Shown one piece after another: positions 42,464-63,124 of a stretch of 64,000 nt of DNA. Each line of letters begins with the position of its first letter. Position 1 is the stretch's first letter. The notes under the pieces were generated by a model, which did not search any database, was not told where the DNA came from, and saw nothing but the letters and a program-made list of their open reading frames with translations. Location of the stretch: IMG/VR virus record IMGVR_UViG_3300009151_009555. One strand, given 5' to 3'. The stretch is from a virus. A program made the position numbers and the translations under genes.

Positions 42464-42537
42464 GGTCCGTTAGTGAAGTGGTTTAACACGTCTCACTTTC
42501 TATGAGAAGATCATGGGTTCGAATCCCATACGGACTA
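42464..42537 (+). tRNA. tRNA with anticodon TTC (Glu-like), atypical U at position 37
   Basis: Acceptor GGTCCGT/ACGGACT (G1-U72), anticodon stem TCTCA/TGAGA, loop CTTTCTA, T-arm ATGGG-TTCGAAT-CCCAT. No CCA encoded. Confidence 0.65.
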
Positions 42538-42545
42538 CAAAATAT

Positions 42546-42628
42546 TGGAAGGTGGCCGAGTGGTTAAAGGCGGCAGACTGTAAATCTGCTCTCGCAAGAG
42601 TACGGGGGTTCGAATCCCTCCCTTCCAA
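42546..42628 (+). tRNA. tRNA-Tyr (GTA), class II with long variable arm (bacterial type)
   Basis: TGGAAGG acceptor, GGCCGAGTGGTTAAAGGC D-arm, GCAGA-CTGTAAA-TCTGC anticodon arm, 13-nt variable arm, T-arm GGGGG-TTCGAAT-CCCTC. Confidence 0.85.
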
Positions 42629-42675
42629 CAACCAGGTTCTGGTAATCTATTAAGTTAGTTTAACAGAATCAAAAT

Positions 42676-42747
42676 GGTCCATTCGTCTAGTGGTAAGGAC
42701 GTTAGGTTTTCAACCTAGAGACAGGGGTTCAATTCCCCTATGGACTG
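42676..42747 (+). tRNA. tRNA-Glu (TTC)
   Basis: GGTCCAT acceptor, D-arm GTCTAGTGGTAAGGAC, loop TTTTCAA, T-arm AGGGG-TTCAATT-CCCCT. 72 nt. Confidence 0.85.
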
Positions 42748-42753
42748 CAATAT

Positions 42754-42820
42754 GCCGGTGAACGGGTGGAAGCCAGGTCTGTAAAACCTTTGCTCGTGGG
42801 TTCGATACCCACCAACGGCA
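42754..42820 (+). tRNA. degenerate, short tRNA-like sequence (67 nt; GTA anticodon loop, Tyr-like); possible tRNA pseudogene
   Basis: Good T-arm GTGGG-TTCGATA-CCCAC. The acceptor GCCGGTG/CAACGGC has a G-A mismatch, the D-arm cannot be folded canonically, and the anticodon stem has 4 bp. Confidence 0.35.
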
Positions 42821-42825
42821 CATAT

Positions 42826-42899
42826 TGGTAAGTAGCTTAGACGGTAGAAGCATGTGTCTTATACACACAAGATAGTGGGTTCGATACCCACCTTACCAA
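42826..42899 (+). tRNA. tRNA-Ile (TAT)
   Basis: Acceptor TGGTAAG/CTTACCA, D-stem GCTT/AAGC, anticodon arm TGTGT-CTTATAC-ACACA (anticodon UAU, reads AUA), T-arm GTGGG-TTCGATA-CCCAC. Confidence 0.75.
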
Positions 42900-42910
42900 C
42901 AACAAAATAT

Positions 42911-42998
42911 GCAGGTGTCGCCTAGTTGGTCGATGGCTCCGGATTTCCAATCCGGTCAGATAAGGTTCACATCGTGGGTTCGAATCCCACTACCTGCT
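42911..42998 (+). tRNA. tRNA with anticodon TCC (Gly) but a class-II-like 18-nt variable region; discriminator U
   Basis: Acceptor GCAGGTG/TACCTGC, D-arm GCCTAGTTGGTCGATGGC, anticodon arm CCGGA-TTTCCAA-TCCGG, variable region TCAGATAAGGTTCACATC, T-arm GTGGG-TTCGAAT-CCCAC. Confidence 0.65.
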
Positions 42999-43038
42999 CA
43001 AACCGAATAGAGACAAGTGCTCATTTAATATATATTAA

Positions 43039-43785
43039 ATGAAACCTTGGGATGAAAATGAATTAAGTTTGGCAATATCTATGATAGAGTCAAAAAAAAC
43101 TTATAAAGAGATAAGTGAAAAATTAAATAGAAGCGAAAGAAGTATTAGAGAAAAACTGAGAAGAAATGGATATAAATATTTTGATTTTATAGATATTTAT
43201 GAAGATTTAAAATGTATAGAGTGTGATAAAATATTTACAGATAAAAAAATAAATAATAGAAAATTCTGCACAAGATCTTGCTCGGTTAAATTTAATAATA
43301 AATTTAAAATAAAAAATGGAAATTATGCAGTTAAAAATTCAATTGAAAAGGATTGTAAATTCTGTAATAAAAAATTAGTAAATAAAGAAAGAGTTAAAAC
43401 GTTTTGTAATAAAAAGTGTCAAAAAAATTATGAAAGGAAAATAATTTATGAAAAAATAGAAAAAGGAACATATGAATATAAAAATTCTAGAAAATATAAA
43501 GATTATTTAATTGATAAATATGGTAATAAATGTATGAAATGTGAATGGTGTGAGATTAATGAAGTAACAGGTAAAGTTCCAATTCAATTAGAACATAAAG
43601 ATGGTAATTCAAATAATAACAATCTTAATAATTTAGAGTTACTTTGTCCTAATTGTCATTCTTTAACTAGCACATATGGTTACCTAAACAAGGGTAATGG
43701 TAGGGATGAACGAAAAAAATATAGAGATTATATAAAAAATCTAACATTAGATGAATTGATTGAAATGAAAATAAAAATTGGATAG
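43039..43785 (+). mobile_element. HNH homing-endonuclease gene (N-terminal HTH-like region plus C-terminal HNH motif) inserted within the tRNA cluster
   Basis: The protein has IQLEHKDGNSNNNNLNNLELLCPNCHS (HNH motif) and several C-x2-C pairs. It is extremely AT-rich even for this genome and is flanked by tRNAs on both sides. Confidence 0.75.
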
Positions 43786-43847
43786 AATATAAAAAGACTT
43801 GAGTTTCAAAGTACACGAAACAACGAAGGTTAGTCTTCCTTCAATTT

Positions 43848-43921
43848 GGGGCTATGGTGACAACTGGCTAACACACCGCACTTGCAATGCGGAGATGGGG
43901 TATCGTACACCCCTAGCTCCA
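43848..43921 (+). tRNA. probable tRNA-Ala (TGC) with G3-U70 and an atypical T-loop (ATCGTAC)
   Basis: Acceptor GGGGCTA/TAGCTCC with a G3-T70 wobble, anticodon arm CCGCA-CTTGCAA-TGCGG, T-stem GGGGT/ACCCC. The T-loop has A54/T58 instead of T54/A58. Confidence 0.55.
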
Positions 43922-43947
43922 CAAAATTAAAAAAAATAAAAAGCAAT

Positions 43948-44241
43948 ATGAAAAAAGAATTTGATGAGAGTAAAGAAATTTTACTTAAAACATTAAATAA
44001 ATTACCAAAAGTAGATGGATATTTAGGTTATCTAGTTAATAAACATAATAATAATGTTGTATCTTTGTTTGAAGATAAAGAAGATACTATTATGTATCAT
44101 CAGTTAATGTTGTTGGTTATTGAAAAATATGAGTTTGATTGTGGTAATTATACAACTAATGGGATGACATATAAATTAAATAAAGATTGGGATGAAATAG
44201 TGATAGAATATGGTGGTTCATTATTACTACCATTTTTATAA
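43948..44241 (+). CDS. hypothetical protein, 97 aa (MKKEFDESKEILLK...)
   Basis: ORF 43882..44241 trimmed so it does not run through the tRNA. Its start lies inside a 29-nt cassette AAAAAAAATAAAAAGCAATATGAAAAAA that is repeated at 44243. Confidence 0.4.
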   Translation: MKKEFDESKEILLKTLNKLPKVDGYLGYLVNKHNNNVVSLFEDKEDTIMYHQLMLLVIEKYEFDCGNYTTNGMTYKLNKDWDEIVIEYGGSLLLPFL

Positions 44242-44262
44242 ATAAAAAAAATAAAAAGCAAT

Positions 44263-44406
44263 ATGAAAAAAAGTAAAGAAGTATTAACAGGAAGTTTTGA
44301 ATCATCAAAAGAAAAAATGAGAAGAGATACAAATGATCATGTATTTAAGTTTATAACAAAGATGATAAAACGAAAAGGGAAAAAAAAATTAAAAACTAAT
44401 GTATAA
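44263..44406 (+). CDS. possible small basic protein, 47 aa
   Basis: Starts in the second copy of the 29-nt cassette. Below the ORF-track cutoff. Confidence 0.25.
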   Translation: MKKSKEVLTGSFESSKEKMRRDTNDHVFKFITKMIKRKGKKKLKTNV

Positions 44407-44674
44407 ATTAACTAATGGTATGTGGATTCAAATTGTATTTTGTAAACCACCTAAAGAAACAGAAGAAGAAAAAATTGTTTTAGAATACACCGAAATGTTA
44501 AACTTATCAAAAGGTTGGTCAGTTATTACAGCTTATAAAGTAGAAAGTGAAAATTTCCCAACTGATAAGTGGGGTGTTGTTTTATTACGTGATGATAAAG
44601 AAATGGCTGAACATCATTTAAAACTTGCTGAGAAATCTAAACAATGTTTTGAGTTGATGAAATTGCGAGAATAG
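44399..44674 (+). CDS. hypothetical protein, 91 aa
   Basis: ORF track. Its stop overlaps the first 10 nt of tRNA-Gly. Confidence 0.4.
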   Translation: MYKLTNGMWIQIVFCKPPKETEEEKIVLEYTEMLNLSKGWSVITAYKVESENFPTDKWGVVLLRDDKEMAEHHLKLAEKSKQCFELMKLRE

Positions 44675-44736
44675 CTCAGTGGTAGAGCATCTGGTTGCCA
44701 ATCAGAAGGTCGCGGGTTCAAGCCCCGTTTCTCGCT
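44665..44736 (+). tRNA. tRNA-Gly (GCC)
   Basis: GCGAGAA/TTCTCGC acceptor, D-arm GCTCAGTGGTAGAGC, loop TTGCCAA, T-arm GCGGG-TTCAAGC-CCCGT, discriminator U. Confidence 0.9.
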
Positions 44737-44740
44737 CAAA

Positions 44741-44814
44741 GGGGAATTAGCTCAGTTGGCTAGAGCGCTTGCCTGGCAGGCAAGAGGTGACCGGTTCAAT
44801 CCCGGTATTCTCCA
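44741..44814 (+). tRNA. tRNA-Ala (GGC) with G3-U70
   Basis: GGGGAAT/ATTCTCC acceptor with a G3-T70 wobble, D-arm GCTCAGTTGGCTAGAGC, anticodon arm CTTGC-CTGGCAG-GCAAG, T-arm ACCGG-TTCAATC-CCGGT. Confidence 0.9.
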
Positions 44815-44891
44815 CAAAATATTAGGTGGCTTAGAAAACCTTCCTTATATTTGTATAAGTAATAACAACTATCATTTTTCTTTGTCAAAAG

Positions 44892-46408: not shown

Positions 46409-46837
46409 TTATCCGATTACTTCTTTGATAACTTCAGATACGACTTTTCTATCTACTGGTAATCCTGCAAACTCTTTCATGATTTGACCGATGTTTGTTA
46501 TACCTGCAACTTTTAAATCTGTTATCTTATTAAAGATTTCTTCTTTTGATAATTGCTTTGGAAGATAAGCTTCAATAATTGCTAATTCTACTACGGCTTG
46601 TACTATATCTTCACCTTTGCCATCAACTGGTGATAATGACTTTATTGTCTCGTTTAAAGACTTTACCGTTTTGTTCAAGATCTTTATAATTTCATCATCT
46701 GATAAAGTTTCAACTCCTGTATTCTTTTCAATAGTTTGAATTTCACCTTTAATTACAGATAGCAAGTTCTTTGCTACGGTGTTCTTCGCTCTGAATGCAG
46801 TCATGTAGTCTGCACTGATTCTTTCTTTTAGTGTCAT
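46409..46837 (-). CDS. GatB/YqeY-domain protein
   Basis: ORF 46409..46879 trimmed to the ATG at 46837 (MTLKERISADY...). The internal block AIIEAYLPKQLSKEEIFNKI matches the YqeY pattern AIIEEYLPKQLSEEEI. The minus-strand box TCCTTATATTTACAA lies about 20 nt upstream. Confidence 0.6.
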   Translation of the reverse strand: MTLKERISADYMTAFRAKNTVAKNLLSVIKGEIQTIEKNTGVETLSDDEIIKILNKTVKSLNETIKSLSPVDGKGEDIVQAVVELAIIEAYLPKQLSKEEIFNKITDLKVAGITNIGQIMKEFAGLPVDRKVVSEVIKEVIG

Positions 46838-47229
46838 GTCTTTTTGTTTTAGGTTGTAAATATAAGGAGGATTTTTCAATCCACCAAATATGAAGAGTTG
46901 GAACGCCTGTCGATTATGGTTGGAACCCTAGAACCTTGTGTATCGACTTTTAGTGACCTCATCACTTAGGATTACCTTTTAATATGCTTTCGCCTCGGTT
47001 GAGCAGTGTTACCATTCTGCTCGTTTAATTTCTTCATAGATTGGAATTTATCATATAAAAAAGTGTTTATACCAATCAATTTACACTTTTACACCTTTCG
47101 ATTCTTTATATATCTATAATACGGGGCAGTTCATCATTTTTTATGAAAGGTGTAAACTTATTCACTGACTACTTACTGCAATTTTAAAAATCGATCAAAT
47201 CATTCTGAAAGATTTTATATATAACTTAT

Positions 47230-47448
47230 ATGAGTGAGTTGCTTAAAAAGTTGGGAATAGAGAAGGAAAAAGTTTTCAATAAAGACTTTGACTACTTCTA
47301 TGACCTTTATAAACAGAAAGCTTTGGACTATGGAAGAAAAGGTGAACTTAGGTTTTTAAAAGAACGTGGTAAAGTCATCATCTATGTTGTTATGGATGAC
47401 ATTGGTTGTCCTGATTCAGACGAAGATGATCAAATTTATCTAGACTGA
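47230..47448 (+). CDS. hypothetical protein, 72 aa
   Basis: ORF track. Preceded by TTTATATATAACTTAT at the ATG. Confidence 0.45.
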   Translation: MSELLKKLGIEKEKVFNKDFDYFYDLYKQKALDYGRKGELRFLKERGKVIIYVVMDDIGCPDSDEDDQIYLD

Positions 47449-48027
47449 TTTTTTGTAGAGAATAGATTCGACTATCTCACAGAAGATGTTTCCTATAAGA
47501 AGATGAGACTCGTTTATTCTAGGTCGATTGTTTGATGGTACTGATATGATTTCACCACAACATTCTGACATAAGTCCTGGGTCTTCACCGGTAAGTCCTA
47601 TTGTCTTCATTCCTAATCTATTTGCCATATTTAGTGCGTTGATTACACTTTTAGAATTTCCTGATGAAGAAACTGCTATAAGCATGTCACCTGGATTTCC
47701 TTGTGCTAATATCATTCTAGCATAGACTTCATCAAAAGAGTATTGATTCGAAATAGATGTTATGTATGATGAGTTTGTATGTAGAGCCTCTACATTAAGA
47801 GGTGGTCTATCATAATAGAATATTCCAGTTAGTTGAGATGCAATCTGTTGTGTTATTGTTGCCGACCCACCATTACCACATAGCAGTATCTTTCCACCAT
47901 TCTTCAATGTCGCTGCGATTTCTTTAGATACTACATCTATTGTAAATACCAATACATCATCTTCTATGATAGAGTTTTTAATTATCATAGATTCTCTAAA
48001 TCTATCTTTTATATATTGGTTATCCAT
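47440..48027 (-). CDS. gmhA: phosphoheptose isomerase (sedoheptulose-7-phosphate isomerase, SIS domain)
   Basis: KILLCGNGGSA...QIASQLTG and LIAVSSSGNSKSVINA match the GmhA signature blocks (E. coli [23 protein letters not shown] / LLGISTSGNSANVIKA, as recalled). Confidence 0.85.
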   Translation of the reverse strand: MDNQYIKDRFRESMIIKNSIIEDDVLVFTIDVVSKEIAATLKNGGKILLCGNGGSATITQQIASQLTGIFYYDRPPLNVEALHTNSSYITSISNQYSFDEVYARMILAQGNPGDMLIAVSSSGNSKSVINALNMANRLGMKTIGLTGEDPGLMSECCGEIISVPSNNRPRINESHLLIGNIFCEIVESILYKKSV

Positions 48028-48118
48028 AATAATTATATTTTTAATAATTAAAATGTTTTATTTATCTATTAAGACATCGATAGTTAAATATATACTTTAA
48101 TTAAAAAAAGTAGTTAAA

Positions 48119-51100
48119 ATGATACTTATTCAACAGATTTCAAATCTAGATTTAGAATATATTGATGATATAAAAGAATGCCTAAGACATAATGTTTTAA
48201 ACCCTATAATAGACACAATTGTAATTTTTTCAAATTGTAAGAATTTTGAAAGTAGTATAAAAATAGATTCCAGAAAAATAAAGTATTTTGAAGTTGAAAT
48301 TGACCTTTTCGAGATGATGAAATATGGTAAGAAAAACTCTAAAAATTTCATAATATATAGCTCACCATTTTTAAAGTTTGGTATTGATTTAAAGAAGGTG
48401 ATGACTTTCGACATGGAAAATGTTTTAAAAGAGGAAAATTGTTACTACATCTTCGATAAACGATTGGATATTAAAAATAAAAGAAATATAGAGGATATTT
48501 TAGATGGTCAAAAGCTACCAAATAGTTTGAATCTACAAAAGATGGGCTATTACACAAAAGGATTTCAATATAATTCTTACGATTGGAAAGTTTCAAGAAC
48601 ATATAAAGAGAAGAAGGTTGAATTAATATCTGAGAAGTTTGAATTACCTAAAATACCTAATAAAGTTGAACAAAAAATAATTGATATAATACCATCAAAA
48701 AGAGTTGGTATTAAAAAATTAGATGTGGTTATTGTATCTGTGAACTATAATGATTTTTTGATAGTTTCTTTAGAGAACAATATAGATATTTTTGAAAATA
48801 TAACAGTTGTTACTTCATCTAGTGACTTTCTATGTCAAAAGATATGTGAGAAGTTTGGGGTAAAATGTATTGTTACTGATGTGATGTATGAGAATAATGC
48901 AGTTTTCAATAAAGGTAAAGCTATAAATGAGGGAATAAGGTCTATTATGGATCCAGACTACATTCTTTTACTAGATGCGGATATTGTTGTTATGAATAAA
49001 ATAGATTTAGATACTTTAGAAGATAACTTTTTATATACATCCGAAAGATATATTGTTCCAAACTATGATTCGTATAAAAGATATATTTATGGTGATAATG
49101 AAAAATTCCGAGTTGATCCAGATAATGGTTTAGGATTTTTTCAATTGTTTAATTATTCCAAAGGAATAAAATATTCAGAACTTTTTGATAATGCTGCAGT
49201 TTCTGATATTAAATTTAGAGACAAATTCAAAGAAAAAAGAAATATTGGTAAAAGGGTATTACACTTAGGTACTGATTCTAATTGGGATGGTAGAAAATCA
49301 AAAATATTTTTGAATTATAATGAATTTATATTTCTTTTAGAAAAAAAACCATTTGATATAAATTCATATTTTGATAAAATCTATTGTCTTAATTTAGATA
49401 GAAGAGTTGATAGGTGGGAGATAGTGGATCACATGTTCAAAAAAAACAACATAAATGTAGAACGATTTTCTGCCATAGATGGAGAAAAGATATCGGATCT
49501 GGAATTTTCGGACACTGGCTTAGACGAGGATCAATGTAGTAATAAAGGTCTGATAGAAAACAAAAATTCGCTGGCTTGTCTTTTAAGCCATCTTGAGATA
49601 ATAAAAGAAGCTAAACTAAACAATTATAAAAGAATATTGATATTTGAAGATGATGTTGTATTTTCCAAATCATTTAAGAAAGATATATCGAAAATAGAAT
49701 CATATAATTGGAAGCTTTTGTATTTAGGGGCAAGTCAGTTTGACTGGGAAAATATTGAAATAAGCAACAATCATTATAAATGCAGAAAGACATTGGGAAC
49801 ATTCGCGTATGCGATTGATTCCAGTATCTATGACGATATAATTGGTGTGCTTTCGAAAAGAGAGAAATCGATTGACAACATACTTTCGGATATACAAAAA
49901 AAATACAAAAGGAGTTCGTTTGTTGCTTACCCAAACATAGTAATTTCTGATGTTTCCGATTCTGATATAAGAAAATCAAAAGACAAAATCGATTATGCAA
50001 AAATAGTAAGGTGGGACATGAGTAATTTTGAATTTACGAAGATTTTAAAAAAGGTCAGTATTGTCATACCATGCTACAATCAGTCGGAATTTTTAATCGA
50101 ATGTATAGATAGTTGCTTGTCACAAACCGTTTTACCAGATTCTATATTGGTTCTGTTGATGGATAAGAAATCAATCTCGATGAAGCAACTTTTGAAATCC
50201 AAATCCAAAAAAATAAAATGTTTTATATCGAATAGAAGATATTTGTCGAATGCCAGGAACTATCTAATAGACAAAGTAGATACCGAATACTTCATACCAC
50301 TTGATGCCGATGATAAGATACCATCGAACTTTATCGAGGAAATATCATTGATAGATGCTGATGTCGTCTATGTAGGATCCAAATATTTTGGAGGTGTTTC
50401 TGGATGCTGGCCAAATCCAATAACAGAAGAAATCAATTGGTCAAAGCTAACGACTTTTAGAAGAAATTCATTGGTCTGCACTGCTTTGATAAAAAAAGAT
50501 TCGTTTATGAAATCTGGAAGGTACAGTGATAATCTCTGGGCGTTCGAAGACATGGATCTCTGGATAAAGATGTACAAGAACGGCATGGATTTCAAGAAAT
50601 GTAATGGGACTTTCTTAAGCTATAGAAAGTATTTGTCTCAAAATTCTCTACTATCTAAGACAAACTCGGATTCGAAAAACACAGAAATTCTTAAAAAGGA
50701 AATAATGAAGGATAGTTTCTATTCAAAGACCCCTAAGATAATACACTGGGTTTGGCTTGGGAAACGGCCGGTTCCTCAGGAAGTAATCGATACATGGTAT
50801 AGAAATCTTCCAGATTCTGAATGGCGTTATATGATGTGGAATGAAGAAAACTTCGATATGGAATCATGTGATTTTTTGAAGAAGGCCTATTCACTGAAAA
50901 AATATGGAATATGTGTCGACTATATCAGAGCAAAGGTGTTACATGATTTTGGTGGAATATGGCTAGATGCAGATTGTGTCATAAACTGTGATATATCACC
51001 ATTTTTGCAATGGGACTTTTTCGCCAGCTGGGAAAATGAGAGCTACCTAAACATAGGATTGATAGGGTGTAGCCCAAATCTTGTCGCGATGAAGAATATA

Positions 51101-51433
51101 CTTGACTATTATACAGATATAAAAGTTTCGGAAAATGTATTGGTTTCAAACCATTCTTTTGTTAAAGAGATAGGGACCGGGCCTATGGTTCTGACTAGAG
51201 AGATTTTGAAGATAGAAGATATCATGAATGGTGGATTTTCGAATAGCTTCGAGAAGGATGGTAAGAGATACCTTATCGAGACACCGGACGTATTTGTTTT
51301 AGATGATTCGGAAAATGGTCATATCAATTACGCGGTGCATCTGTTTGATGGATCTTGGACGGATAAGAAAGAAGAATGGTCGGTCGTTGTGAGAAATTCC
51401 TACGATTCGTGGAAAATAAAGAACAGAATATGA
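48119..51433 (+). CDS. 1104-aa multi-domain glycosyltransferase (GT-A/DxD domain, GT25-like, GT2, GT32-like)
   Basis: Domain 1: VVIVSVNYND...LLLDADIVV. Domain 2: YCLNLDRRVDRWEIV...FSAIDG...LIFEDD (GT25/Lic2B-like). Domain 3: VSIVIPCYNQSEFLIECIDSCLSQT...LDADDKI (GT2). Domain 4: IIHWVWLGKRPVP...DYIRAKVLHDFGGIWLDADCV (GT32/Och1-like). Confidence 0.85.
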   Translation: MILIQQISNLDLEYIDDIKECLRHNVLNPIIDTIVIFSNCKNFESSIKIDSRKIKYFEVEIDLFEMMKYGKKNSKNFIIYSSPFLKFGIDLKKVMTFDMENVLKEENCYYIFDKRLDIKNKRNIEDILDGQKLPNSLNLQKMGYYTKGFQYNSYDWKVSRTYKEKKVELISEKFELPKIPNKVEQKIIDIIPSKRVGIKKLDVVIVSVNYNDFLIVSLENNIDIFENITVVTSSSDFLCQKICEKFGVKCIVTDVMYENNAVFNKGKAINEGIRSIMDPDYILLLDADIVVMNKIDLDTLEDNFLYTSERYIVPNYDSYKRYIYGDNEKFRVDPDNGLGFFQLFNYSKGIKYSELFDNAAVSDIKFRDKFKEKRNIGKRVLHLGTDSNWDGRKSKIFLNYNEFIFLLEKKPFDINSYFDKIYCLNLDRRVDRWEIVDHMFKKNNINVERFSAIDGEKISDLEFSDTGLDEDQCSNKGLIENKNSLACLLSHLEIIKEAKLNNYKRILIFEDDVVFSKSFKKDISKIESYNWKLLYLGASQFDWENIEISNNHYKCRKTLGTFAYAIDSSIYDDIIGVLSKREKSIDNILSDIQKKYKRSSFVAYPNIVISDVSDSDIRKSKDKIDYAKIVRWDMSNFEFTKILKKVSIVIPCYNQSEFLIECIDSCLSQTVLPDSILVLLMDKKSISMKQLLKSKSKKIKCFISNRRYLSNARNYLIDKVDTEYFIPLDADDKIPSNFIEEISLIDADVVYVGSKYFGGVSGCWPNPITEEINWSKLTTFRRNSLVCTALIKKDSFMKSGRYSDNLWAFEDMDLWIKMYKNGMDFKKCNGTFLSYRKYLSQNSLLSKTNSDSKNTEILKKEIMKDSFYSKTPKIIHWVWLGKRPVPQEVIDTWYRNLPDSEWRYMMWNEENFDMESCDFLKKAYSLKKYGICVDYIRAKVLHDFGGIWLDADCVINCDISPFLQWDFFASWENESYLNIGLIGCSPNLVAMKNILDYYTDIKVSENVLVSNHSFVKEIGTGPMVLTREILKIEDIMNGGFSNSFEKDGKRYLIETPDVFVLDDSENGHINYAVHLFDGSWTDKKEEWSVVVRNSYDSWKIKNRI

Positions 51434-52563
51434 GAGTAGCAGTATTCAACAACTATAAAGAGCATCTTTTTGTAGATCCTAAACCTACAGGTATAAGAAA
51501 TGTGATAGATTATGACAATATAGGAAATATTGTATTCTTAGAATCCATTTCAAGAGAACTGGATGCGGATTCTATAAGCATTTATGATTTTATACTAAAC
51601 TATAAATTGTATGAAGAAAGATATGATATGCTCATACTTTCATTAGCAAATATGGTTTCTCCTGGATATAGCATTTCTGAAGATTTTATGACGGCGTTGG
51701 AGAAGACCAAGATACCAATCTGTATATTCTCAATAGGAGTTCAGGCACAGACAGAAGATGAGCTTTATAAAAATACATTGAGTTCAAATGTTAGAAGAAT
51801 ATTAGAACTATCTAATAAAAGTGGAACAACTATTGGATTGAGAGGTGAGACGACAAAGGCTTATTTAGATAGAGAAGGAGTCAAGAACACGCATGTAATT
51901 GGATGTCCGTCACTGTTCTATAAGAAAAGCATACCTATCAAAAATGGAACTGGACCGAAAGATATATTACTTAGTGGTGGGTTTGAAGGATATTGGAGAG
52001 ATCCTCTATCGAAGATGTTCAATTTTGGATATAAATATTGCAGGTCCTATCTGGTCCAAAGTGAGTCCAGGATTCTATTTGACAAATATAAAATATCGGA
52101 GATAGAGTTGAATACATGGAATGTTTCCAAAGAAAAGAAATCATATCTGATGTGCAGAGGTTATGACTATCTTTATTATTGTCATCCGAATCTAGACAAA
52201 TTAGATTTGGAAAATTGGTTTATAGATAATTCGATTTTCCTAAACGATTTTGATAATTGGATGGAGTCGATGAACACGTATGATATGCATATAGGTGCTA
52301 GGTTTCATGGATCTGTTATGAGCACACTAGCTGGAGTACCTACGTTGATATTGGTAGGAGATTTAAGAGTTAAGGAGTTTGTGGAATTCCACGGTTTACC
52401 AAACATGAACATCTTCGACTTCGATGAAGATGTTAAGCCAAAAGATTTATATGATATGATTGATTATCAAAAATATGAAAGTAGATATGATAATCTTAAA
52501 TCTAACTACATCGGATATTTGAATAGAAATGGCTTGGAGTTTAAGTTAAATCCAACCCTCTAA
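51430..52563 (+). CDS. polysaccharide pyruvyl transferase-like protein (CsaB/WcaK family), tentative
   Basis: ORF 51376..52563 trimmed to the ATG at 51430, which overlaps the GT stop (ATATGA). The C-terminal block MHIGARFHGSVMSTLAGVPTLIL resembles the conserved C-terminal region of pyruvyl transferases. Confidence 0.4.
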   Translation: MRVAVFNNYKEHLFVDPKPTGIRNVIDYDNIGNIVFLESISRELDADSISIYDFILNYKLYEERYDMLILSLANMVSPGYSISEDFMTALEKTKIPICIFSIGVQAQTEDELYKNTLSSNVRRILELSNKSGTTIGLRGETTKAYLDREGVKNTHVIGCPSLFYKKSIPIKNGTGPKDILLSGGFEGYWRDPLSKMFNFGYKYCRSYLVQSESRILFDKYKISEIELNTWNVSKEKKSYLMCRGYDYLYYCHPNLDKLDLENWFIDNSIFLNDFDNWMESMNTYDMHIGARFHGSVMSTLAGVPTLILVGDLRVKEFVEFHGLPNMNIFDFDEDVKPKDLYDMIDYQKYESRYDNLKSNYIGYLNRNGLEFKLNPTL

Positions 52564-54405
52564 GTTATTAAGTCTTCTTTTCAAAGATTGAAGTAAATAA
52601 CGGTTTGCTTTGATATAGTCTTCGTCGTTCAAGAAATCTTTGTTGTCTGGCTCATTAAAGACTAATCTTTTTTGTCTTCCAGAACCTAATACTCCTTCCA
52701 TGTTTTCTATCTGGTTTATCTTCTCTTTTAAATCTTTAAGTATTGTTTGCTTAGTCATTGCATCCATTTTGTAGTTGTACGCAAACCTGTCAGTCCAATA
52801 GAAGCTCTTCTCATTTGTTTTAAGTCCAAGTGCTTGACAATCTTCTGATATAAAGTTTCCTTTCTCAGTTTTGAAGACTTTTACACCATGGTCGTTGAAG
52901 TAGTATTTTCCGTTTTCTCCTTTGCTGAGTACGTCACCTGCAATATAGTCGCTGTCGTGTTCAAACTTTTTAAGATATTCTCCACACTCCATACTATCAA
53001 GACTCACCATGTTTTTGTCTTGGTCTGAAAGTGTTTCGGTTCCTGTTCTACATTCTTGTAGGTCCGAATCTTCTTCTATCCAGTTTATACACTGCATTTG
53101 GTCATCCTCCAAAAAGTTATCGTCGTACCATTCAGAATAAACGGAATCGTTTTCGTGTATCCAGTTTCCGGTTACACAGTCTCTTATTATAGAACTATAC
53201 TCATCTGGATACCATCCTCTATTTGATCCGTACTCGACGTGCATTGCGTCCTCTCTGTATATCCAGTCTCCCAAAGGATCTGAATAGATTGCCTCGCTTT
53301 CTGGTATTCTACAGTCGAAATAGTCAGACCATTTTCCTGAAGTGTCGTCATATGAACCATCAGTATGTGTCATTATGTAACAACCTTCGTAGTCTTCGTC
53401 ATCGTCGTTTATTAAAAGGTTTTTGGATCTCAAAAGCCTTTTGAATGTGTCCATATAAGGATACATATCGAAGTCGTGGCTTTTTAACTCTACGGTTGCT
53501 CTTAAGCCGAAGTATTCTTCATCACCTAGCTTGAAGTCTTTGCTTGCTCCGTATTGTGATGTAAGTCTTTTAAGCCATCCTTGCTTGTCTGCGTATTGTT
53601 GAAACATCAATTTTGTTGCATCATCTATGGCATAGATTCTATCCATGTAGTATTCAACATTATCTATGTTAATCTCTTTTATTTTCCAGATTAGAACTCT
53701 TCCTCTAATCTCTTCACCATCTTCACTTTTTAGTATCAATAGTCTACAAACTTCTGGGTTTTCAGAGTAGATGTTTAAGTATTGACCACATCTTGGATAT
53801 CTCATACAAGAGCTTCCAAGCTCTCCTGTTTCGAACTCGTATTGCTTTTCGTTATACCAATGTTTTATTTCATTGCCTTCTACCAATACGAATTCTGCAT
53901 CAGTGTCTCCAATCTTTTTGAAAAGGTTTGTAAACTCTTCTACTTCTTTGTTATTGTATTTATCAGGAAAAATTTGATTTACAAGTTTGGCAATCTTAGC
54001 ATCACTTCTTGCTTTGTCTTTAAGACTCCAGGGTTCGCTGTTGTATATGTAGTTCACGTCGCTTTGTGATATCGTTCCGTCTTCTATTTTTGTATGGATT
54101 CTACTGAGTGCATCTAGTCCGACACCATGTATTTTTGTAAACTCTTCAATTGATTTCTTTAAAGAATTGACTGCTTTTTTTATTTGTGTAAATGAAAAGT
54201 ATCCTTCTTTATCAGACATACCAATAAAAGTCATATCTGGTTTTACGTCTGTATATTCGACATCTATTAAGTCTTTTGCAATCTTATTTTTTAAACTAAG
54301 TTTGTATAAAGAATCTTTGAACTCTTTTGTATAATAAATCATTGATTCATTTACTACGTTCTCAAACAATCTTTCACCTAAAAATGTGTTATATCTTGAT
54401 ATCAT
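52546..54405 (-). CDS. large acidic protein, 619 aa; paralog of the N-terminal domain of 35747..37273
   Basis: Shared block HWYNEKQYEFETGELGSSCMRYPRCGQYLNIYSENPEVCRLLILKSEDGEEIRGRVLIW. The C-terminal half is Asp/Glu/Trp/Tyr-rich. Confidence 0.6.
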   Translation of the reverse strand: MISRYNTFLGERLFENVVNESMIYYTKEFKDSLYKLSLKNKIAKDLIDVEYTDVKPDMTFIGMSDKEGYFSFTQIKKAVNSLKKSIEEFTKIHGVGLDALSRIHTKIEDGTISQSDVNYIYNSEPWSLKDKARSDAKIAKLVNQIFPDKYNNKEVEEFTNLFKKIGDTDAEFVLVEGNEIKHWYNEKQYEFETGELGSSCMRYPRCGQYLNIYSENPEVCRLLILKSEDGEEIRGRVLIWKIKEINIDNVEYYMDRIYAIDDATKLMFQQYADKQGWLKRLTSQYGASKDFKLGDEEYFGLRATVELKSHDFDMYPYMDTFKRLLRSKNLLINDDDEDYEGCYIMTHTDGSYDDTSGKWSDYFDCRIPESEAIYSDPLGDWIYREDAMHVEYGSNRGWYPDEYSSIIRDCVTGNWIHENDSVYSEWYDDNFLEDDQMQCINWIEEDSDLQECRTGTETLSDQDKNMVSLDSMECGEYLKKFEHDSDYIAGDVLSKGENGKYYFNDHGVKVFKTEKGNFISEDCQALGLKTNEKSFYWTDRFAYNYKMDAMTKQTILKDLKEKINQIENMEGVLGSGRQKRLVFNEPDNKDFLNDEDYIKANRYLLQSLKRRLNNLEGWI

Positions 54406-61888: not shown

Positions 61889-63124
61889 CTATATACTTAT
61901 ATTTACTTTGTCGTAAATTTTTACTCTGGCCATAAGTTCTGTTCCTAACTTTTCAACAATACCAACTACTAATGCATTACCCATAAAAAACGCTCTTTTT
62001 GTCGGTGTGACACCTTCTATGTAAGTATGATTGTCAGGAAACATATTTAATCTTTCAAGTTCTAAAGGTGTTAGTCTTCTATGTGTGTCTCCTACTTTAA
62101 TAACATGTTTGAATCTCGACGCGGATTTCCCACCCTCACCAGTTATGATTGTTCTTGAAGGTTTGTCGATTGGATCTGGAAAAGTCATTCCACCTTCTGA
62201 ATAAAAATATTCAAATCCATCTGCAGTAGTTCTTTTCTCTTTTTTCGCACCTTTCAGGTATTCCCATTTTGTTAAATCATCTACAAAGAATTCTTTTTCG
62301 ATTTTTCCAGATTCTAAAATATCTCCTAATACTGTTCTTGGTCCACTATAATCAGCAGCTACTTTCTTAGTCATTACCATACCATCTATCATCACTCCAG
62401 AGTTTTCAAAAGGAGATGTTTTCTTTCCTTTGTTGAAGTCAGAAGATACAGAAAGAATATCTCCTTTTATGTTGAAATGAAGAAACCTTTCTTCGTTTTT
62501 GATTGTAGGAAAAGATCTTGTTGATATTCCATTATCAATAAGCCAAGCCGCTTGATTTTCTTTTATTGTTTCGTAGATGTCAGTTCCTTTTAAGAATCCC
62601 ATTATGAAAACTCTTTTCCTTCTTTGAGGCATTCCATAGTCCGCAGCATTGATTACTCTCCACTCTACAGCATAACCAAGTTCTTCTAAGCTTTTTAGAA
62701 TGACCGCAAAGTCTCTGCCCCTTTGTGCTGTTGGTGATTTCAATATTCTATCTACGTTCTCTAAAAGAATGTATTTAGGTTTTACTTCTTTATCTCTAAG
62801 AATTTTGTGTATTGACCACCAAAGAACTCCTTTCTTTCCAATAAGTCCTTTTGAGTTTTGTGATGTACTTGCTACAGAATAATCTTGACATGGAAATCCA
62901 CCAACTAATAAATCAAAGTCTGGCATCTTACTTACATCAACATCATTCACATCTATGTTTGTGTGTCCATCAGATCCAAATCTTGCTTCATAAACTTCAG
63001 AAGCCCATTGTTTTTTTGTACTTGGTTCCCATTGATTACTGAATACCACTTCATATCCACCAGCTCTTTCAAGTCCTACTCTGAATCCACCAACACCTGC
63101 AAAAAGTTCTGCTACTCTTATCAT
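61889..63124 (-). CDS. dcm: DNA (cytosine-5)-methyltransferase, second copy
   Basis: Motif I LFAGVGGFRVG, motif IV GGFPCQDYS, motif VI LLENVDRIL. Confidence 0.9.
   Translation of the reverse strand: MIRVAELFAGVGGFRVGLERAGGYEVVFSNQWEPSTKKQWASEVYEARFGSDGHTNIDVNDVDVSKMPDFDLLVGGFPCQDYSVASTSQNSKGLIGKKGVLWWSIHKILRDKEVKPKYILLENVDRILKSPTAQRGRDFAVILKSLEELGYAVEWRVINAADYGMPQRRKRVFIMGFLKGTDIYETIKENQAAWLIDNGISTRSFPTIKNEERFLHFNIKGDILSVSSDFNKGKKTSPFENSGVMIDGMVMTKKVAADYSGPRTVLGDILESGKIEKEFFVDDLTKWEYLKGAKKEKRTTADGFEYFYSEGGMTFPDPIDKPSRTIITGEGGKSASRFKHVIKVGDTHRRLTPLELERLNMFPDNHTYIEGVTPTKRAFFMGNALVVGIVEKLGTELMARVKIYDKVNISI

What the first reader, a model, noticed from the sequence alone, without database searches (positions are those of the whole stretch)
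47440..52563. Heptose-isomerase, four-domain glycosyltransferase and pyruvyl-transferase module
A clear GmhA (sedoheptulose-7-P isomerase) is divergently adjacent to a single 1104-aa polypeptide. That polypeptide fuses four glycosyltransferase domains (GT-A DxD, GT25-like, GT2, GT32-like). A pyruvyl-transferase-like gene follows, translationally coupled by ATATGA. A phage building a heptose-containing, possibly pyruvylated glycan could be remodelling host surface polysaccharide (superinfection exclusion) or glycosylating virion proteins. Hypermodifying DNA is less likely but possible, given the dNMP kinase and two Dcm enzymes elsewhere.
Basis: partly seen in the sequence, partly recalled or inferred. 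Interest (0 to 1): 0.8.

Follow-up and report, generated by a model that had tools for sequence, protein, structure and literature searches.

The report
Swappable sugar-chain cassette in huge phage
A huge bacteriophage carries one giant enzyme made of five sugar-transferase modules plus a pyruvate-adding enzyme, a cassette that is swapped between near-identical phage strains, while the neighbouring "heptose isomerase" has lost its catalytic residues and belongs to the phage backbone rather than to the cassette.

Summary
The three genes lie at the stated coordinates. The 1104-aa protein has four DxD-bearing GT-A glycosyltransferase domains (a divergent GT2-like domain, GT25, GT2, GT32). It also has a fifth, N-terminal GT-A-like domain without DxD. 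A PF04230 pyruvyl transferase follows with an ATGA stop/start overlap.

The "clear GmhA" claim fails. All four zinc/catalytic positions (H61, E65, Q172, H180) are Q, Q, N, N throughout the phage clade. The closest cellular homologues (~50% identity) keep them. The gene is under strong purifying selection (dN/dS 0.02-0.10). It is present in relatives with or without a cassette at this site. No other heptose-pathway or NDP-sugar gene turned up in the 64 kb.

The cassette is a hypervariable island. Seven related haplotypes carry five different cassettes, and two carry none. Two backbones that differ by dS 0.016 differ through an in-frame swap of the C-terminal transferase domains plus the accessory genes.

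The window is closest to the published 634-735 kb huge phages, whose predicted hosts are Bacteroidetes.

Most likely function: cytoplasmic assembly of a short, pyruvate-capped, strain-specific oligosaccharide. The acceptor is probably a phage (virion) protein, as in giant viruses. That acceptor is inferred, not shown.

The parts
47440..48027 (-). GmhA-like SIS-domain protein (195 aa). It keeps the phosphate-binding loops but has lost all Zn/catalytic residues. It is a backbone gene, not part of the cassette.
   Evidence: SIS_2 E=3.6e-28. NCBIfam GmhA equivalogs score below cutoff. Q61, Q65, I69, Q95, N172, N180 replace H, E, R, D, Q, H. dN/dS is 0.02-0.10. The gene is present with or without a cassette.
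48028..48118 (.). Divergent 91-bp intergenic spacer forming the left edge of the variable island. An ATATAAT element lies about 8 bp upstream of the GmhA-like ATG.
   Evidence: 11% GC. ATATAAT is conserved in all 7 loci, including those without a cassette. The sigma-70 scan is not above the shuffled background.
48119..48553 (+). GT domain A (aa 1-145): a non-catalytic GT-A/nucleotidyl-transferase-like fold that tracks the phage backbone. Proposed to be an adaptor domain.
48554..48709 (+). Lys-rich linker (aa 146-197), predicted to be disordered.
   Evidence: pLDDT <50. pI 9.65.
48710..49348 (+). GT domain B (aa 198-410): a divergent GT2-like GT-A domain. It is the conserved 'head' catalytic domain of the family.
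49355..50038 (+). GT domain C (aa 413-640): GT25.
   Evidence: PF01755 E=6.3e-17. PDB hits to ColGalT1 and Mimivirus R655. E510-D-D512 conserved 19/19.
50051..50713 (+). GT domain D (aa 645-865): GT2.
   Evidence: PF00535 E=8.1e-18. D729-A-D-D732 conserved 19/19. A recombination breakpoint lies just upstream, near aa 620-650.
50714..51433 (+). GT domain E (aa 866-1104): GT32-like (Gly_transf_sug), followed by the stop codon.
   Evidence: PF04488 E=1.6e-6, above cutoff. D950-A-D952 conserved 19/19.
51430..52563 (+). Polysaccharide pyruvyl transferase family protein (377 aa), translationally coupled to the GT by an ATGA overlap.
   Evidence: PF04230 E=9.7e-15. Full-length homology (<=32% identity) to bacterial proteins annotated as PS pyruvyl transferase. 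R138, R291, H293, D311 and R313 are invariant across phage and bacterial members. No TM segment.
52546..54405 (-). 619-aa backbone gene of unknown function forming the right edge of the island. Its end overlaps the pyruvyl-transferase end convergently by 18 bp.
   Evidence: It flanks the site in all 7 haplotypes. Homology between the swapped haplotypes L006 and L008 resumes in its last ~270 bp. It belongs to a multi-copy family with 7-15 places per huge-phage genome.

Best explanation
The locus is a strain-variable glycan-synthesis cassette inserted at a fixed site in the genome of a huge phage. The closest published genomes are the 634-735 kb phages predicted to infect Bacteroidetes.

The cassette has two genes. 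The first encodes a soluble 1104-aa 'assembly-line' polypeptide made of five modules:
- an N-terminal GT-A-like domain A that is non-catalytic and specific to the backbone;
- a flexible linker;
- four DxD-bearing GT-A glycosyltransferase domains: B (divergent GT2-like), GT25, GT2 and GT32.
The second gene, translationally coupled to the first, encodes a polysaccharide pyruvyl transferase.

Inferred mechanism. Using host nucleotide sugars and PEP, the four catalytic domains add about four sugars in the cytoplasm. The pyruvyl transferase then caps the chain with an anionic pyruvate ketal. The conserved head (A plus B) selects and primes a conserved acceptor. The exchangeable tail domains and accessory enzymes set the strain-specific outer structure. 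In relatives the accessory enzyme may instead be a sulfo-, methyl-, acetyl-, cytidylyl- or LicD-type transferase. The acceptor is most probably a phage-encoded, likely virion-surface, protein, by analogy with the autonomous capsid and fibril glycosylation of chloroviruses and Megavirinae. This last step is inference.

The adjacent GmhA-like gene is not part of the cassette. It is a conserved backbone gene derived from a real GmhA. Its Zn/catalytic residues have all become Gln or Asn while the phosphate-binding loops are retained. It is therefore predicted to bind a sugar phosphate (or a partner protein) rather than to make heptose.
For: Shown.
- Domain content and conserved metal motifs.
- No TM segments in any of the proteins.
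- The GT and pyruvyl transferase are coupled by ATGA here and in L092.
- About 120 homologues share the A/B head (up to 98% identity) but carry shuffled C-terminal domains: GT25, GT2, GT32, Branch, GT4, Glyco_trans_1_2, PF04765 and CTP_transf. Breakpoints lie at about aa 410 and 640.
- Per-domain mosaicism and a GC step from 25% (A, B) to 38% (E).
- Seven haplotypes of the same backbone site carry five different cassettes, and two carry none.
- L006 and L008 have GmhA-like dS=0.016. Their DNA is 95.7% identical through GT residues 1 to about 620 and then unrelated until the 3' end of the 617-aa gene.
- In a census of 16 related loci, the neighbours are further GTs, pyruvyl-, methyl- and sulfo-transferases, LicD, acetyltransferase, deacetylase, epimerase and aminotransferase. 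No Wzx, Wzy, phosphoglycosyl transferase, ABC exporter, oligosaccharyltransferase or TET appeared among the families listed.

For a phage-specific acceptor.
- Domain B relatives were found in 73 viral loci but in only 1 of 185,579 prokaryotic species genomes.
- Domain A has 11 hits in 1.84 billion proteins; 9 are 646-1350-aa proteins matched from residue 1.
- Domain A tracks the phage backbone.
- In L041 the homologous GT lies between the T4-type portal and the prohead protease/MCP genes.
- Stand-alone B-like GTs lie 1.5-2.4 kb from gp23-like MCP genes.
- The best viral structural matches are giant-virus multi-domain GTs.
- Megavirus pairs a three-GT-domain protein with a pyruvyltransferase for fibril glycans (PMC10117803). 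PBCV-1 A111/114R is a cytoplasmic three-domain GT acting on the capsid protein (PMC7826918).

For the GmhA-like reading; PMC4697000; PMC5387315.
Against: - No glycan, acceptor or activity has been observed; everything beyond domain identity is inference.
- In the window itself no structural gene lies near the cassette. The positional link to head genes comes from relatives only 30-44% identical in domain B.
- In the stand-alone cases one or two opposite-strand genes of unknown function lie between the MCP gene and the GT.
- GT25, GT2 and GT32 domains and pyruvyl transferases are typical of LPS, LOS and capsule pathways, so a host glycolipid acceptor is not excluded.
- The genome scan for domain B used only two peptide patterns, so distant bacterial homologues would be missed.
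- Loci without a cassette at this site may carry one elsewhere in genomes I could not read in full.
- The GmhA-like protein could use an unrecognised catalytic mechanism.
Confidence: 0.55

Rival explanations
1. Host-envelope remodelling. The soluble multi-GT and the pyruvyl transferase act at the cytoplasmic face of the inner membrane on a host lipid-linked glycan (LOS/LPS core, an O-unit or a capsule repeat). This changes the cell surface during the long infection cycle of a huge phage, giving superinfection exclusion or receptor masking.
For: GT25, GT2 and GT32 are families well known from LOS/LPS and capsule synthesis, and bacterial pyruvyl transferases act on lipid-linked repeat units (established knowledge; Pfam names). 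The closest annotated pyruvyl-transferase homologues are bacterial. Strain-level cassette turnover resembles O-antigen and capsule loci.
Against: There are no membrane segments. No Wzx, Wzy, PGT, ABC-transporter or Gtr-type partner appeared in the listed families of a census of 16 related loci. The head domains A and B are essentially absent from prokaryotic genomes. Domain A co-varies with the phage backbone rather than being host-like.
Confidence: 0.25
2. GmhA, the multi-GT and the pyruvyl transferase form one module that makes a heptose-containing, pyruvylated glycan.
For: The genes are adjacent and divergent. The protein belongs to the GmhA family. Heptose does occur in phage-made glycans on DNA (bioRxiv 10.1101/2023.12.21.572611).
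Against: Q, Q, N, N occupy the Zn/catalytic positions across the whole phage clade, while cellular homologues at ~50% identity keep H, E, Q, H. E-to-Q mutants are reported inactive (PMC4697000), and E65/H183 variants give truncated LOS (PMC5387315). The gene is retained at the same site without any cassette. The same GT plus pyruvyl-transferase cassette occurs in a T4-like backbone with no GmhA-like gene in the 8-kb flanks examined. No GmhB, HldE or HldD was found in the window.
Confidence: 0.06
3. DNA hypermodification. The GT domains build an oligosaccharide on 5-hydroxymethyl-pyrimidines of phage DNA to evade restriction.
For: Phages do attach mono- to tri-saccharides to 5hmC with GT-A or GT-B enzymes (bioRxiv 10.1101/2023.12.21.572611). 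The window has two C5-cytosine methyltransferases. In the T4-like lineage the cassette lies 5-8 kb from a thymidylate-synthase-family gene and a Fapy glycosylase. Cassette diversity would fit an arms race with restriction systems.
Against: No TET/JBP or ThyS-like Pfam hit appeared among about 105 window ORFs, and the nearest methyltransferase is 9.3 kb away behind more than ten unrelated genes. Four to five GT domains with pyruvyl, sulfo, methyl or LicD decoration exceed any DNA glycan reported. The GT domains are acidic to neutral (pI 5.0-6.6, one at 8.8) with no obvious basic DNA-binding domain. Domain A tracks the phage backbone, whereas DNA would be a universal acceptor.
Confidence: 0.07
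4. Alternative role for the GmhA-like protein alone. It might act like DiaA or HobA, binding DnaA or a phage initiator as a tetrameric scaffold. Or it might act as a dominant-negative or sequestering inhibitor that forms mixed tetramers with host GmhA or traps sedoheptulose-7-P.
For: DiaA and HobA are GmhA-fold proteins that lost the catalytic Glu (PMC4697000). The phage protein keeps L190 followed by an aromatic residue (Y191, 100% conserved) where DiaA has L190-F191. The GmhA active site is shared between two subunits, since Q175 comes from the neighbouring monomer (PMC5387315). The protein is ~50% identical to Bacteroidota and Ignavibacteria GmhA. All replacements are amide isosteres (E to Q, H to Q/N, D to Q, Q to N) with the phosphate loops kept. 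dN/dS is 0.02-0.10.
Against: It scores higher against GmhA than against DiaA (160 vs 115 bits, both below cutoff). Canonical cellular GmhAs near this clade also carry an aromatic F at position 191, so the signature is not diagnostic. No binding data exist.
Confidence: 0.4

Closest known systems
Chlorovirus PBCV-1 A111/114R (and A064R) multi-domain glycosyltransferases
   Different: That is a eukaryotic virus whose acceptor (major capsid protein Vp54) and glycan structure are known. There is no sequence relationship beyond the GT-A fold. The phage protein has five modules, an N-terminal non-catalytic GT-A-like domain, and documented in-frame swapping of domains between strains.
Megavirinae fibril-glycosylation clusters (Mimivirus L143 pyruvyltransferase; Megavirus Mg539 three-GT-domain protein next to Mg538 pyruvyltransferase)
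   Same: A multi-domain GT is paired with a pyruvyl transferase, and the cassettes vary between clades (PMC10117803). Giant-virus multi-domain GTs are the best viral structural matches of domain B.
   Different: Those clusters have 6-33 genes and include their own NDP-sugar synthesis. The phage cassette has two genes, and no sugar-activation enzyme was found in the window. Here the variation is at strain level.
Mycobacteriophage virion O-glycosylation (Freeman et al. 2023, cited in PMC12619734)
   Same: Phage-encoded GTs glycosylate capsid and tail-tube proteins in the host cytoplasm. This is precedent for virion glycans in tailed phages.
   Different: Those are separate small GT genes in 50-60 kb actinophages. 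No multi-domain fusion, pyruvyl transferase or relationship to domains A/B is known to me. No homologue of the GT head or of the pyruvyl transferase was found in 50,697 phage records.
Phage MT/5mYOX(TET)-dependent DNA glycosyltransferase gene clusters (Pyle et al., bioRxiv 10.1101/2023.12.21.572611)
   Same: Phage GT-A and GT-B enzymes related to LPS and teichoic-acid enzymes, sometimes acting in sequence, sometimes adding heptose. C5-methyltransferases are present in the same genome.
   Different: Those clusters sit beside a methyltransferase and a TET/ThyS enzyme, and their GT-A enzymes carry a JGT-like R...DDD...EDY/F signature. Neither the neighbourhood nor a TET was found here.
DiaA / HobA and the Colwellia 'GmhA' with Glu-to-Gln (PDB 2YVA, 5BY2)
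   Same: GmhA-fold tetramer proteins in which the catalytic Glu is replaced (Ser, Asn or Gln) and isomerase activity is doubted or absent (PMC4697000).
   Different: The phage protein derives from a canonical GmhA lineage (~50% identical to enzymes with an intact site). It has replaced all four Zn/catalytic residues plus R69 and D94. It scores lower against DiaA than against GmhA.
E. coli K4 chondroitin polymerase (K4CP) and other bifunctional GT-A/GT-A enzymes
   Different: K4CP is a two-domain polymerase making a repeating polysaccharide. Here there are four different catalytic domains, which suggests a defined oligosaccharide rather than a polymer (inference).

Membership tests
GmhA (sedoheptulose-7-phosphate isomerase) | SIS fold and family-level sequence similarity | tested here: met
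   SIS_2 E=3.6e-28. PDB GmhA chains E=3.5e-41 over 188 residues.
GmhA (sedoheptulose-7-phosphate isomerase) | Score above the curated equivalog cutoff | tested here: not met
   NF010546 159.6 vs 276; NF010547 156 vs 320; TIGR00441 151.6 vs 209.45.
GmhA (sedoheptulose-7-phosphate isomerase) | Catalytic/Zn residues H61, E65, Q172, H180 (E. coli numbering; H64, E68, Q175, H183 in B. pseudomallei) | tested here: not met
   The positions are Q, Q, N, N in the query and in 41 of 41 clade members (>=95% each), while 74 cellular homologues have H, E, Q, H. The role of these residues comes from PMC4697000 and PMC5387315.
GmhA (sedoheptulose-7-phosphate isomerase) | Phosphate-binding loops (GNGGS; S/T-x-S-G-x-S) | tested here: met
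   C50-G-N-G-G-S55 and S120-S-S-G-N-S125 are shared-invariant with cellular GmhA.
GmhA (sedoheptulose-7-phosphate isomerase) | Pathway partners (GmhB, HldE/HldA+HldC, HldD) encoded nearby | tested here: not met
   No such Pfam family among about 105 window ORFs. The rest of the phage genome could not be read.
GmhA (sedoheptulose-7-phosphate isomerase) | Isomerase activity | not testable with these tools
   Needs an enzyme assay or gmhA complementation.
DiaA (DnaA initiator-associating protein) | Score above the equivalog cutoff; L190-F191 DnaA-binding signature | tested here: inconclusive
   NF008138 scores 115.4 vs cutoff 352, so that part is not met. The protein has L190-Y191. The signature comes from PMC4697000 but also occurs in canonical GmhAs, so it is not diagnostic.
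GT-A fold glycosyltransferase, GT2-like (domain B, aa 198-410) | GT-A fold with a DxD metal site | tested here: met
GT-A fold glycosyltransferase, GT2-like (domain B, aa 198-410) | Pfam GT2 gathering score | tested here: not met
   PF00535 scores 17.8 bits vs 23.3. It is a divergent, virus-restricted subfamily.
GT25 (domain C) | PF01755 above the gathering score, with a conserved acidic motif | tested here: met
   62.5 bits vs 24. E510-D511-D512 conserved 19/19. PDB hits to ColGalT1 and Mimivirus R655.
GT2 (domain D) | PF00535 above the gathering score, with DxD | tested here: met
   65.4 bits vs 23.3. D729-A-D-D732 conserved 19/19.
GT32-like (domain E) | PF04488 (sugar-binding region with DXD) above the gathering score | tested here: met
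   29.1 bits vs 23. D950-A-D952 conserved 19/19. CAZy assignment was not tested.
Active GT-A glycosyltransferase (domain A, aa 1-145) | GT-A fold plus a DxD or other catalytic acidic motif | tested here: not met
Polysaccharide pyruvyl transferase (PF04230) | Pfam gathering score and full-length homology to annotated family members | tested here: met
   55.6 bits vs 25.3. 90-98% coverage alignments to bacterial family members. Invariant R, H and D positions are shared.
Polysaccharide pyruvyl transferase (PF04230) | Equivalence to a characterised enzyme (CsaB) or to a solved structure | tested here: not met
   TIGR03609 scores 25.3 vs 213. No PDB match by sequence or by profile.
Phage DNA-glycan hypermodification cluster (MT + 5mYOX/ThyS + GT) | GT adjacent to a C5-methyltransferase and a TET/JBP or ThyS-type enzyme | tested here: not met
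   The nearest methyltransferase starts 9.3 kb away (61889). There is no TET_JBP or Thymidylat_synt hit in the window. In T4-like relatives a ThyA-family gene lies 5-8 kb away, which is weak.
Seroconversion / O-antigen or capsule loci (Gtr, Wzx/Wzy or ABC pathways) | Membrane components: GtrA/B/C, an initiating phosphoglycosyl transferase, a flippase, a polymerase or an exporter | tested here: not met
   Maximum 19-residue hydropathy <1.5 for all cassette proteins. None of these families appeared in the neighbour census.
Autonomous viral glycosylation machinery (chlorovirus / Megavirinae type) | Soluble multi-domain viral GTs plus glycan-decorating enzymes, varying by clade | tested here: met
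   PMC7826918; PMC10117803.
Autonomous viral glycosylation machinery (chlorovirus / Megavirinae type) | Glycan demonstrated on a virion protein | not testable with these tools
   Needs virions, glycoproteomics or glycan staining.

The most novel reading that the evidence does not exclude
Huge phages and T4-like phages of aquatic Bacteroidota run an autonomous virion-glycosylation system like that of giant viruses. One polypeptide carries a backbone-matched docking domain, a priming transferase and exchangeable elongating transferases. New surface glycotypes (pyruvylated, sulfated, methylated) arise by in-frame recombination at domain boundaries between co-infecting phages. Next to it, a catalytically dead GmhA copy acts as a substrate trap or dominant-negative subunit against host heptose synthesis, or as a DiaA-like hijacker of replication initiation.
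Probability: 0.25. Interest if true: 0.78.

Novelty: new variant of a known kind. Interest (0 to 1): 0.55.

Why it matters
If the product decorates virions, this would extend autonomous viral glycosylation from giant eukaryotic viruses and a few actinophages to huge and T4-like phages of environmental Bacteroidota.

It would also show a simple diversity generator. Whole catalytic domains are swapped in frame within one ORF, on backbones that are otherwise nearly identical. That would give a tractable system for asking why phages need strain-specific surface glycans: decoy, adhesion to polysaccharide-rich particles, or evasion of host or grazer recognition.

The natural five-module enzyme could also serve as a scaffold for one-pot oligosaccharide synthesis.

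Separately, the finding is a caution for metagenome annotation. A gene auto-annotated as 'D-sedoheptulose 7-phosphate isomerase' (the JGI names), and therefore likely to be counted as an auxiliary metabolic gene, lacks every catalytic residue. It is probably a pseudoenzyme with a different role.

Tried and rejected
- Near-identity DNA search of the locus against 50,697 phage records: no match. The full-length GT gave only weak single-domain hits.
- PHROGs: nothing informative for the pyruvyl transferase, the 619-aa protein or domain B.
- PDB sequence and profile searches gave no hits for the pyruvyl transferase, the 619-aa and 702-aa proteins, the L092 446-aa and 411-aa proteins or the L065 504-aa protein. 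I therefore could not show that the L092-type cassettes abut head genes, nor identify the genes between MCP and GT in the stand-alone loci.
- Exact-sequence look-up of the window's own GT (P0121): not on record.
- The sigma-70 promoter and terminator scan of the locus was no better than shuffled sequence, so no promoter claim is made beyond the conserved ATATAAT.
- I considered the 619-aa neighbour as the glycan acceptor. It is acidic, multi-copy and always adjacent. In Cellulophaga phages, however, its homologue sits among non-structural genes beside a peptidase, so there is no support.
- tblastn of a stand-alone B-like GT against isolated phages: no match.
- E. coli GmhA numbering came from a sequence recalled from memory. 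It was used only for numbering and was cross-checked against the PDB alignment and the residue numbers in PMC4697000 and PMC5387315.

Full report
**1. Observation**

- 47440-48027 (-), 195 aa;
- 48119-51433 (+), 1104 aa;
- a gene whose homologue-supported start is the ATG at 51430. This start overlaps the GT stop as ATGA and gives 377 aa ending at 52563.

The first two genes are divergent across a 91-bp spacer of 11% GC. The end of the pyruvyl-transferase gene overlaps, convergently by 18 bp, a 619-aa gene on the minus strand.

**2. The 1104-aa protein**

Pfam finds three domains above gathering score: GT25 (aa 419-545, E=6e-17), GT2 (647-780, E=8e-18) and the GT32-type Gly_transf_sug domain (888-959, E=1.6e-6). 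The N-terminal 410 residues have no significant Pfam match; GT2 scores 17.8 bits, below the cutoff.

BLAST breakpoints among 120 homologues define five modules: A 1-145, a linker 146-197, B 198-410, C 413-640, D 645-865 and E 866-1104.

| Module | Evidence | Reading |
|---|---|---|

Across 19 full-length homologues the acidic motifs are invariant: D286-A-D288 in B, E510-D-D512 in C, D729-A-D-D732 in D and D950-A-D952 in E.

No protein of the locus has a TM-like segment.

**3. The pyruvyl transferase**

PF04230 matches at E=9.7e-15, above the cutoff. There is full-length but low-identity (<=32%) homology to bacterial proteins annotated as polysaccharide pyruvyl transferases. Arg, His and Asp positions are invariant across phage and bacterial members.

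It is not a CsaB equivalog. It has no detectable relative of solved structure. It has no homologue in 50,697 phage records.

**4. The 'GmhA'**

The protein belongs to the GmhA/DiaA SIS family but lies below every NCBIfam equivalog cutoff.

The PDB alignment shows Gln at both H64 and E68, and Asn at both Q175 and H183, of B. pseudomallei GmhA. The three best PDB hits are engineered point-mutant chains, two of them H64Q and E68Q.

These four residues bind the catalytic zinc, with Q175 contributed by the neighbouring subunit. E65 and H183 variants give truncated LOS (PMC5387315). E-to-Q mutants are reported inactive (PMC4697000).

I aligned 120 homologues:
- All 41 members of the phage clade (69-94% identical) carry Q61, Q65, I69, Q95, N172, N180.
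- The next relatives, 74 sequences at about 50% identity, where named assigned to Ignavibacteria, Bacteroidota or Chloroflexota MAGs (most are unnamed), carry the canonical H, E, R, D, Q, H.
- Fifty-two other positions are invariant in both groups, including both phosphate-binding loops.

Pairwise dN/dS is 0.02-0.10 with dS at or above 1. This is a selected, functional protein with a remodelled, non-catalytic pocket, not a decaying gene.

No GmhB, HldE, HldD or any NDP-sugar enzyme appears among about 105 window ORFs scanned with Pfam.

**5. Context and relatives**

Four backbone proteins of the window have their best or only phage-database matches in LR745206.1 (634,780 bp), LR756502.1 (642 kb), LR756501/3 (735 kb) and LR756504 (636 kb). 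Genomes of these sizes are the huge phages described in PMC7162821, where the genomes above 634 kb are predicted to replicate in Bacteroidetes. Weaker homologues occur in Cellulophaga phages.

Looking up contigs that encode close GmhA-like proteins gives seven haplotypes of one backbone site. The order is [617-624-aa gene] - [variable content] - [GmhA-like] - [70-aa gene] - [YqeY].

| Haplotype | Content between the flanking genes |
|---|---|
| Window | 1104-aa GT + pyruvyl transferase |
| L006/7 | 1373-aa GT (GT25 + Branch + GT2) + cytidylyltransferase |
| L008 | 1215-aa GT (GT25 + Glyco_trans_1_2) + 483-aa protein + pyruvyl transferase |
| L012/13 | 938-aa GT + 226-aa protein |
| L017 | 1415-aa GT + methyltransferase-like protein |
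| L003-5 | Nothing |
| L014-16 | Nothing |

L006 and L008 encode identical GmhA-like proteins (dS 0.016). Their DNA is 95.7% identical through GT residues 1 to about 620. It is then unrelated until the last ~270 bp of the 617-aa gene. This is an in-frame replacement of the C-terminal transferase domains together with the accessory genes.

In the window's own GT, per-domain identities confirm the mosaic:
- P0123 matches at A 97%, B 98%, C 79%, with D and E unrelated.
- Orthologues from a T4-like lineage match at A 7-31%, B 45-57%, C 51-60%, D 64-66%, E 67-74%.
- GC rises from 25% in A and B to 38% in E.

**6. The cassette elsewhere**

The same A-B-GT25-GT2-GT32 protein (53% identical) with the same ATGA-coupled pyruvyl transferase (62% identical) sits in contigs of about 39-150 kb from a T4-like lineage (L092's own contig is 39 kb). 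These encode PolB, ThyA, a Fapy glycosylase, an M28 peptidase and a RimB-like protein, with no GmhA-like gene in the 8-kb flanks examined. In L093 and L009 a sulfotransferase replaces the pyruvyl transferase.

A Pfam census of neighbours at 16 non-redundant loci lists:
- further GT2/GT7C enzymes (6 loci);
- pyruvyl transferases (5);
- several SAM methyltransferases;
- LicD (3);
- an epimerase, a cytidylyltransferase, a hexapeptide acyltransferase, a PIG-L deacetylase and a DegT aminotransferase.

It lists no Wzx, Wzy, initiating phosphoglycosyl transferase, ABC exporter, oligosaccharyltransferase or TET.

**7. Who has the head domains**

Pattern scans for domain B found 73 loci in IMG/VR. They found one locus, a 3.7-kb contig of a MAG, in 185,579 species-representative prokaryotic genomes. 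That scan used only two peptide patterns.

An exhaustive HMMER search of 1.84 billion representative proteins with domain A found 11 proteins. Nine of them are 646-1350-aa proteins matched from residue 1; the other two are an 84-aa fragment and a weak internal repeat match.

Domain A is missing from some orthologues in other lineages.

Domain A is thus narrow in distribution, dispensable in some lineages, and tracks the phage backbone rather than the downstream catalytic domains. That pattern is what one expects of an adaptor for a lineage-specific partner. This is inference.

**8. Positional hints on the acceptor**

In L041 and L043 an 852-aa homologue (B-like domain plus GT25) lies between the T4-type portal gene and the prohead protease, scaffold-position and gp23 MCP genes.

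In about ten loci with stand-alone B-like GTs (about 30% identical) the order is portal, protease, a 367-384-aa protein, gp23-like MCP, one or two opposite-strand genes of unknown function, then the GT. Those intervening genes could not be identified, so this is weaker.

The best viral structural neighbours of domain B are giant-virus multi-domain GTs, including one fused to a pyruvyl-transferase annotation.

**9. Mechanism proposed**

Shown:
- five GT-A modules, four with intact metal sites;
- a coupled pyruvyl transferase;
- solubility of all cassette proteins;
- domain-level recombination;
- independence of the cassette from the GmhA-like gene.

Inferred:
- The enzyme uses host NDP-sugars, since none is made by the window's genes.
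- Each catalytic domain adds one sugar.
- The PEP-dependent pyruvyl transferase adds an anionic cap. A sulfotransferase does so in sister cassettes, which suggests that a negative charge is the selected property.
- The A/B head targets and primes a conserved, phage-specific acceptor.
- The outer part of the glycan is diversified by swapping tail domains.

I rank the acceptors as follows:
- virion protein, about 0.4-0.45 on its own;
- host glycolipid, about 0.25;
- DNA, about 0.07.

The confidence of 0.55 attached to the best explanation as a whole reflects the shown parts (domain content, cassette behaviour, dead GmhA site) together with this inferred acceptor.

The GmhA-like protein is predicted to bind a phosphosugar or a protein partner without isomerising. 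A DiaA-like role or a dominant-negative/sequestering role is possible but untested.

**10. Comparison with known systems**

The closest functional analogues are PBCV-1 A111/114R (PMC7826918) and the Megavirinae fibril-glycan clusters, in which a three-GT-domain protein sits beside a pyruvyltransferase (PMC10117803). Mycobacteriophage virion glycosylation is the phage precedent. The MT/TET-dependent DNA glycosylation clusters (bioRxiv 10.1101/2023.12.21.572611) are the main alternative, and their defining neighbourhood is absent here.

I found no paper describing phage-encoded pyruvyl transferases or five-module phage GTs. The library does not cover all journals.

**11. Verdict**

The sequence observation is largely right and the heptose interpretation is wrong.

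What is there is a new variant of a known kind. It is a viral autonomous-glycosylation-type cassette in huge and T4-like environmental phages. It is notable for packing five GT-A modules into one chain and for strain-level, in-frame domain swapping. Beside it sits a conserved GmhA-derived pseudoenzyme.

Interest is moderate (0.55). The anatomy and evolution are well supported, while the acceptor and the biological role remain open.

Noticed in passing
window 42464-44815: Cluster of 8 tRNA genes (Glu x2, Tyr, Ile-TAT, Gly x2, Ala x2). An HNH-endonuclease-like ORF (43039-43785, phrog_1271) sits inside the cluster.
   Followed up: partly
window 61889-63124 (-) and 27931-28800 (-): Two C5-cytosine DNA methyltransferases (PF00145, E=1e-65 and 3e-45). 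The adjacent 702-aa protein (59677-61785) has no family or PDB match, but is 46% identical to a gene of the 634-kb phage LR745206.1.
   Followed up: partly
window 52546-54405 (-) and 35747-37273 (+): The 619-aa and 508-aa proteins appear to belong to one multi-copy family, with 7-15 matching places per genome in the 634-735 kb huge phages. Both match the same gene of Cellulophaga phages (Callevirus), where it lies next to a peptidase. Function unknown.
   Followed up: partly
window 46409-46879 (-) and neighbours: A YqeY-like protein (PF09424), plus weak Thg1C, EF-Ts_N and EF-P OB hits among small ORFs that were not localised. Relatives L006, L012 and L017 carry Thg1, and L006 and L012 also carry an AlaRS-family fragment, next to YqeY. 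This looks like a translation/tRNA-repair gene neighbourhood.
   Followed up: no
L041 4691-8506 and 12466-14286: Both the T4-type portal gene and the prohead-protease gene of this IMG/VR contig carry inteins (Intein_splicing; LAGLIDADG in the protease). They flank the 852-aa GT.
   Followed up: no
L093 10940-11620; L009 13185-13895: In orthologous cassettes a Sulfotransfer_3 gene occupies exactly the position of the pyruvyl transferase. This suggests the two anionic capping enzymes are interchangeable.
   Followed up: partly
L001/L021-L040/L092/L093, upstream of the GT: In the T4-like lineage the GT cassette always follows the same divergent triad: an M28-type peptidase (~360 aa), a ~176-aa protein and a RimB-like/Zn_protease protein (~133 aa). 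The meaning is unknown. A peptidase also neighbours the 619-aa-family gene in Cellulophaga phages.
   Followed up: no
L014-L016 (e.g. L014 3281-3988); L003 19115-20636: Backbone relatives carry a GH16 glycoside hydrolase (L014-16). L003 carries an FGE-sulfatase-domain protein followed by a YkuD-like protein. These fit hosts that degrade algal polysaccharides.
   Followed up: no
window 48028-48118 and the aligned region of L003-L017: An invariant ATATAAT lies about 8 bp upstream of the GmhA-like start codon in all seven loci, with or without a cassette. L003's gene call (211 aa) probably starts 16 codons too early.
   Followed up: partly
window, ORFs not localised: Single Pfam hits to a restriction-alleviation protein Lar, a Methyltransf_24 SAM methyltransferase and a dNMP kinase (DNMK) among 79 small ORFs. 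More than 85% of window ORFs have no Pfam match.
   Followed up: no
P0041-P0044 (homologues of window 47440-48027): These are intermediate GmhA-like sequences, 69-73% identical to the query. They keep D94, and one keeps H61, but all have already lost E65 and H180 (patterns SNCFD..PHN and SHCYD..PHN). This suggests stepwise loss of the active site.
   Followed up: no
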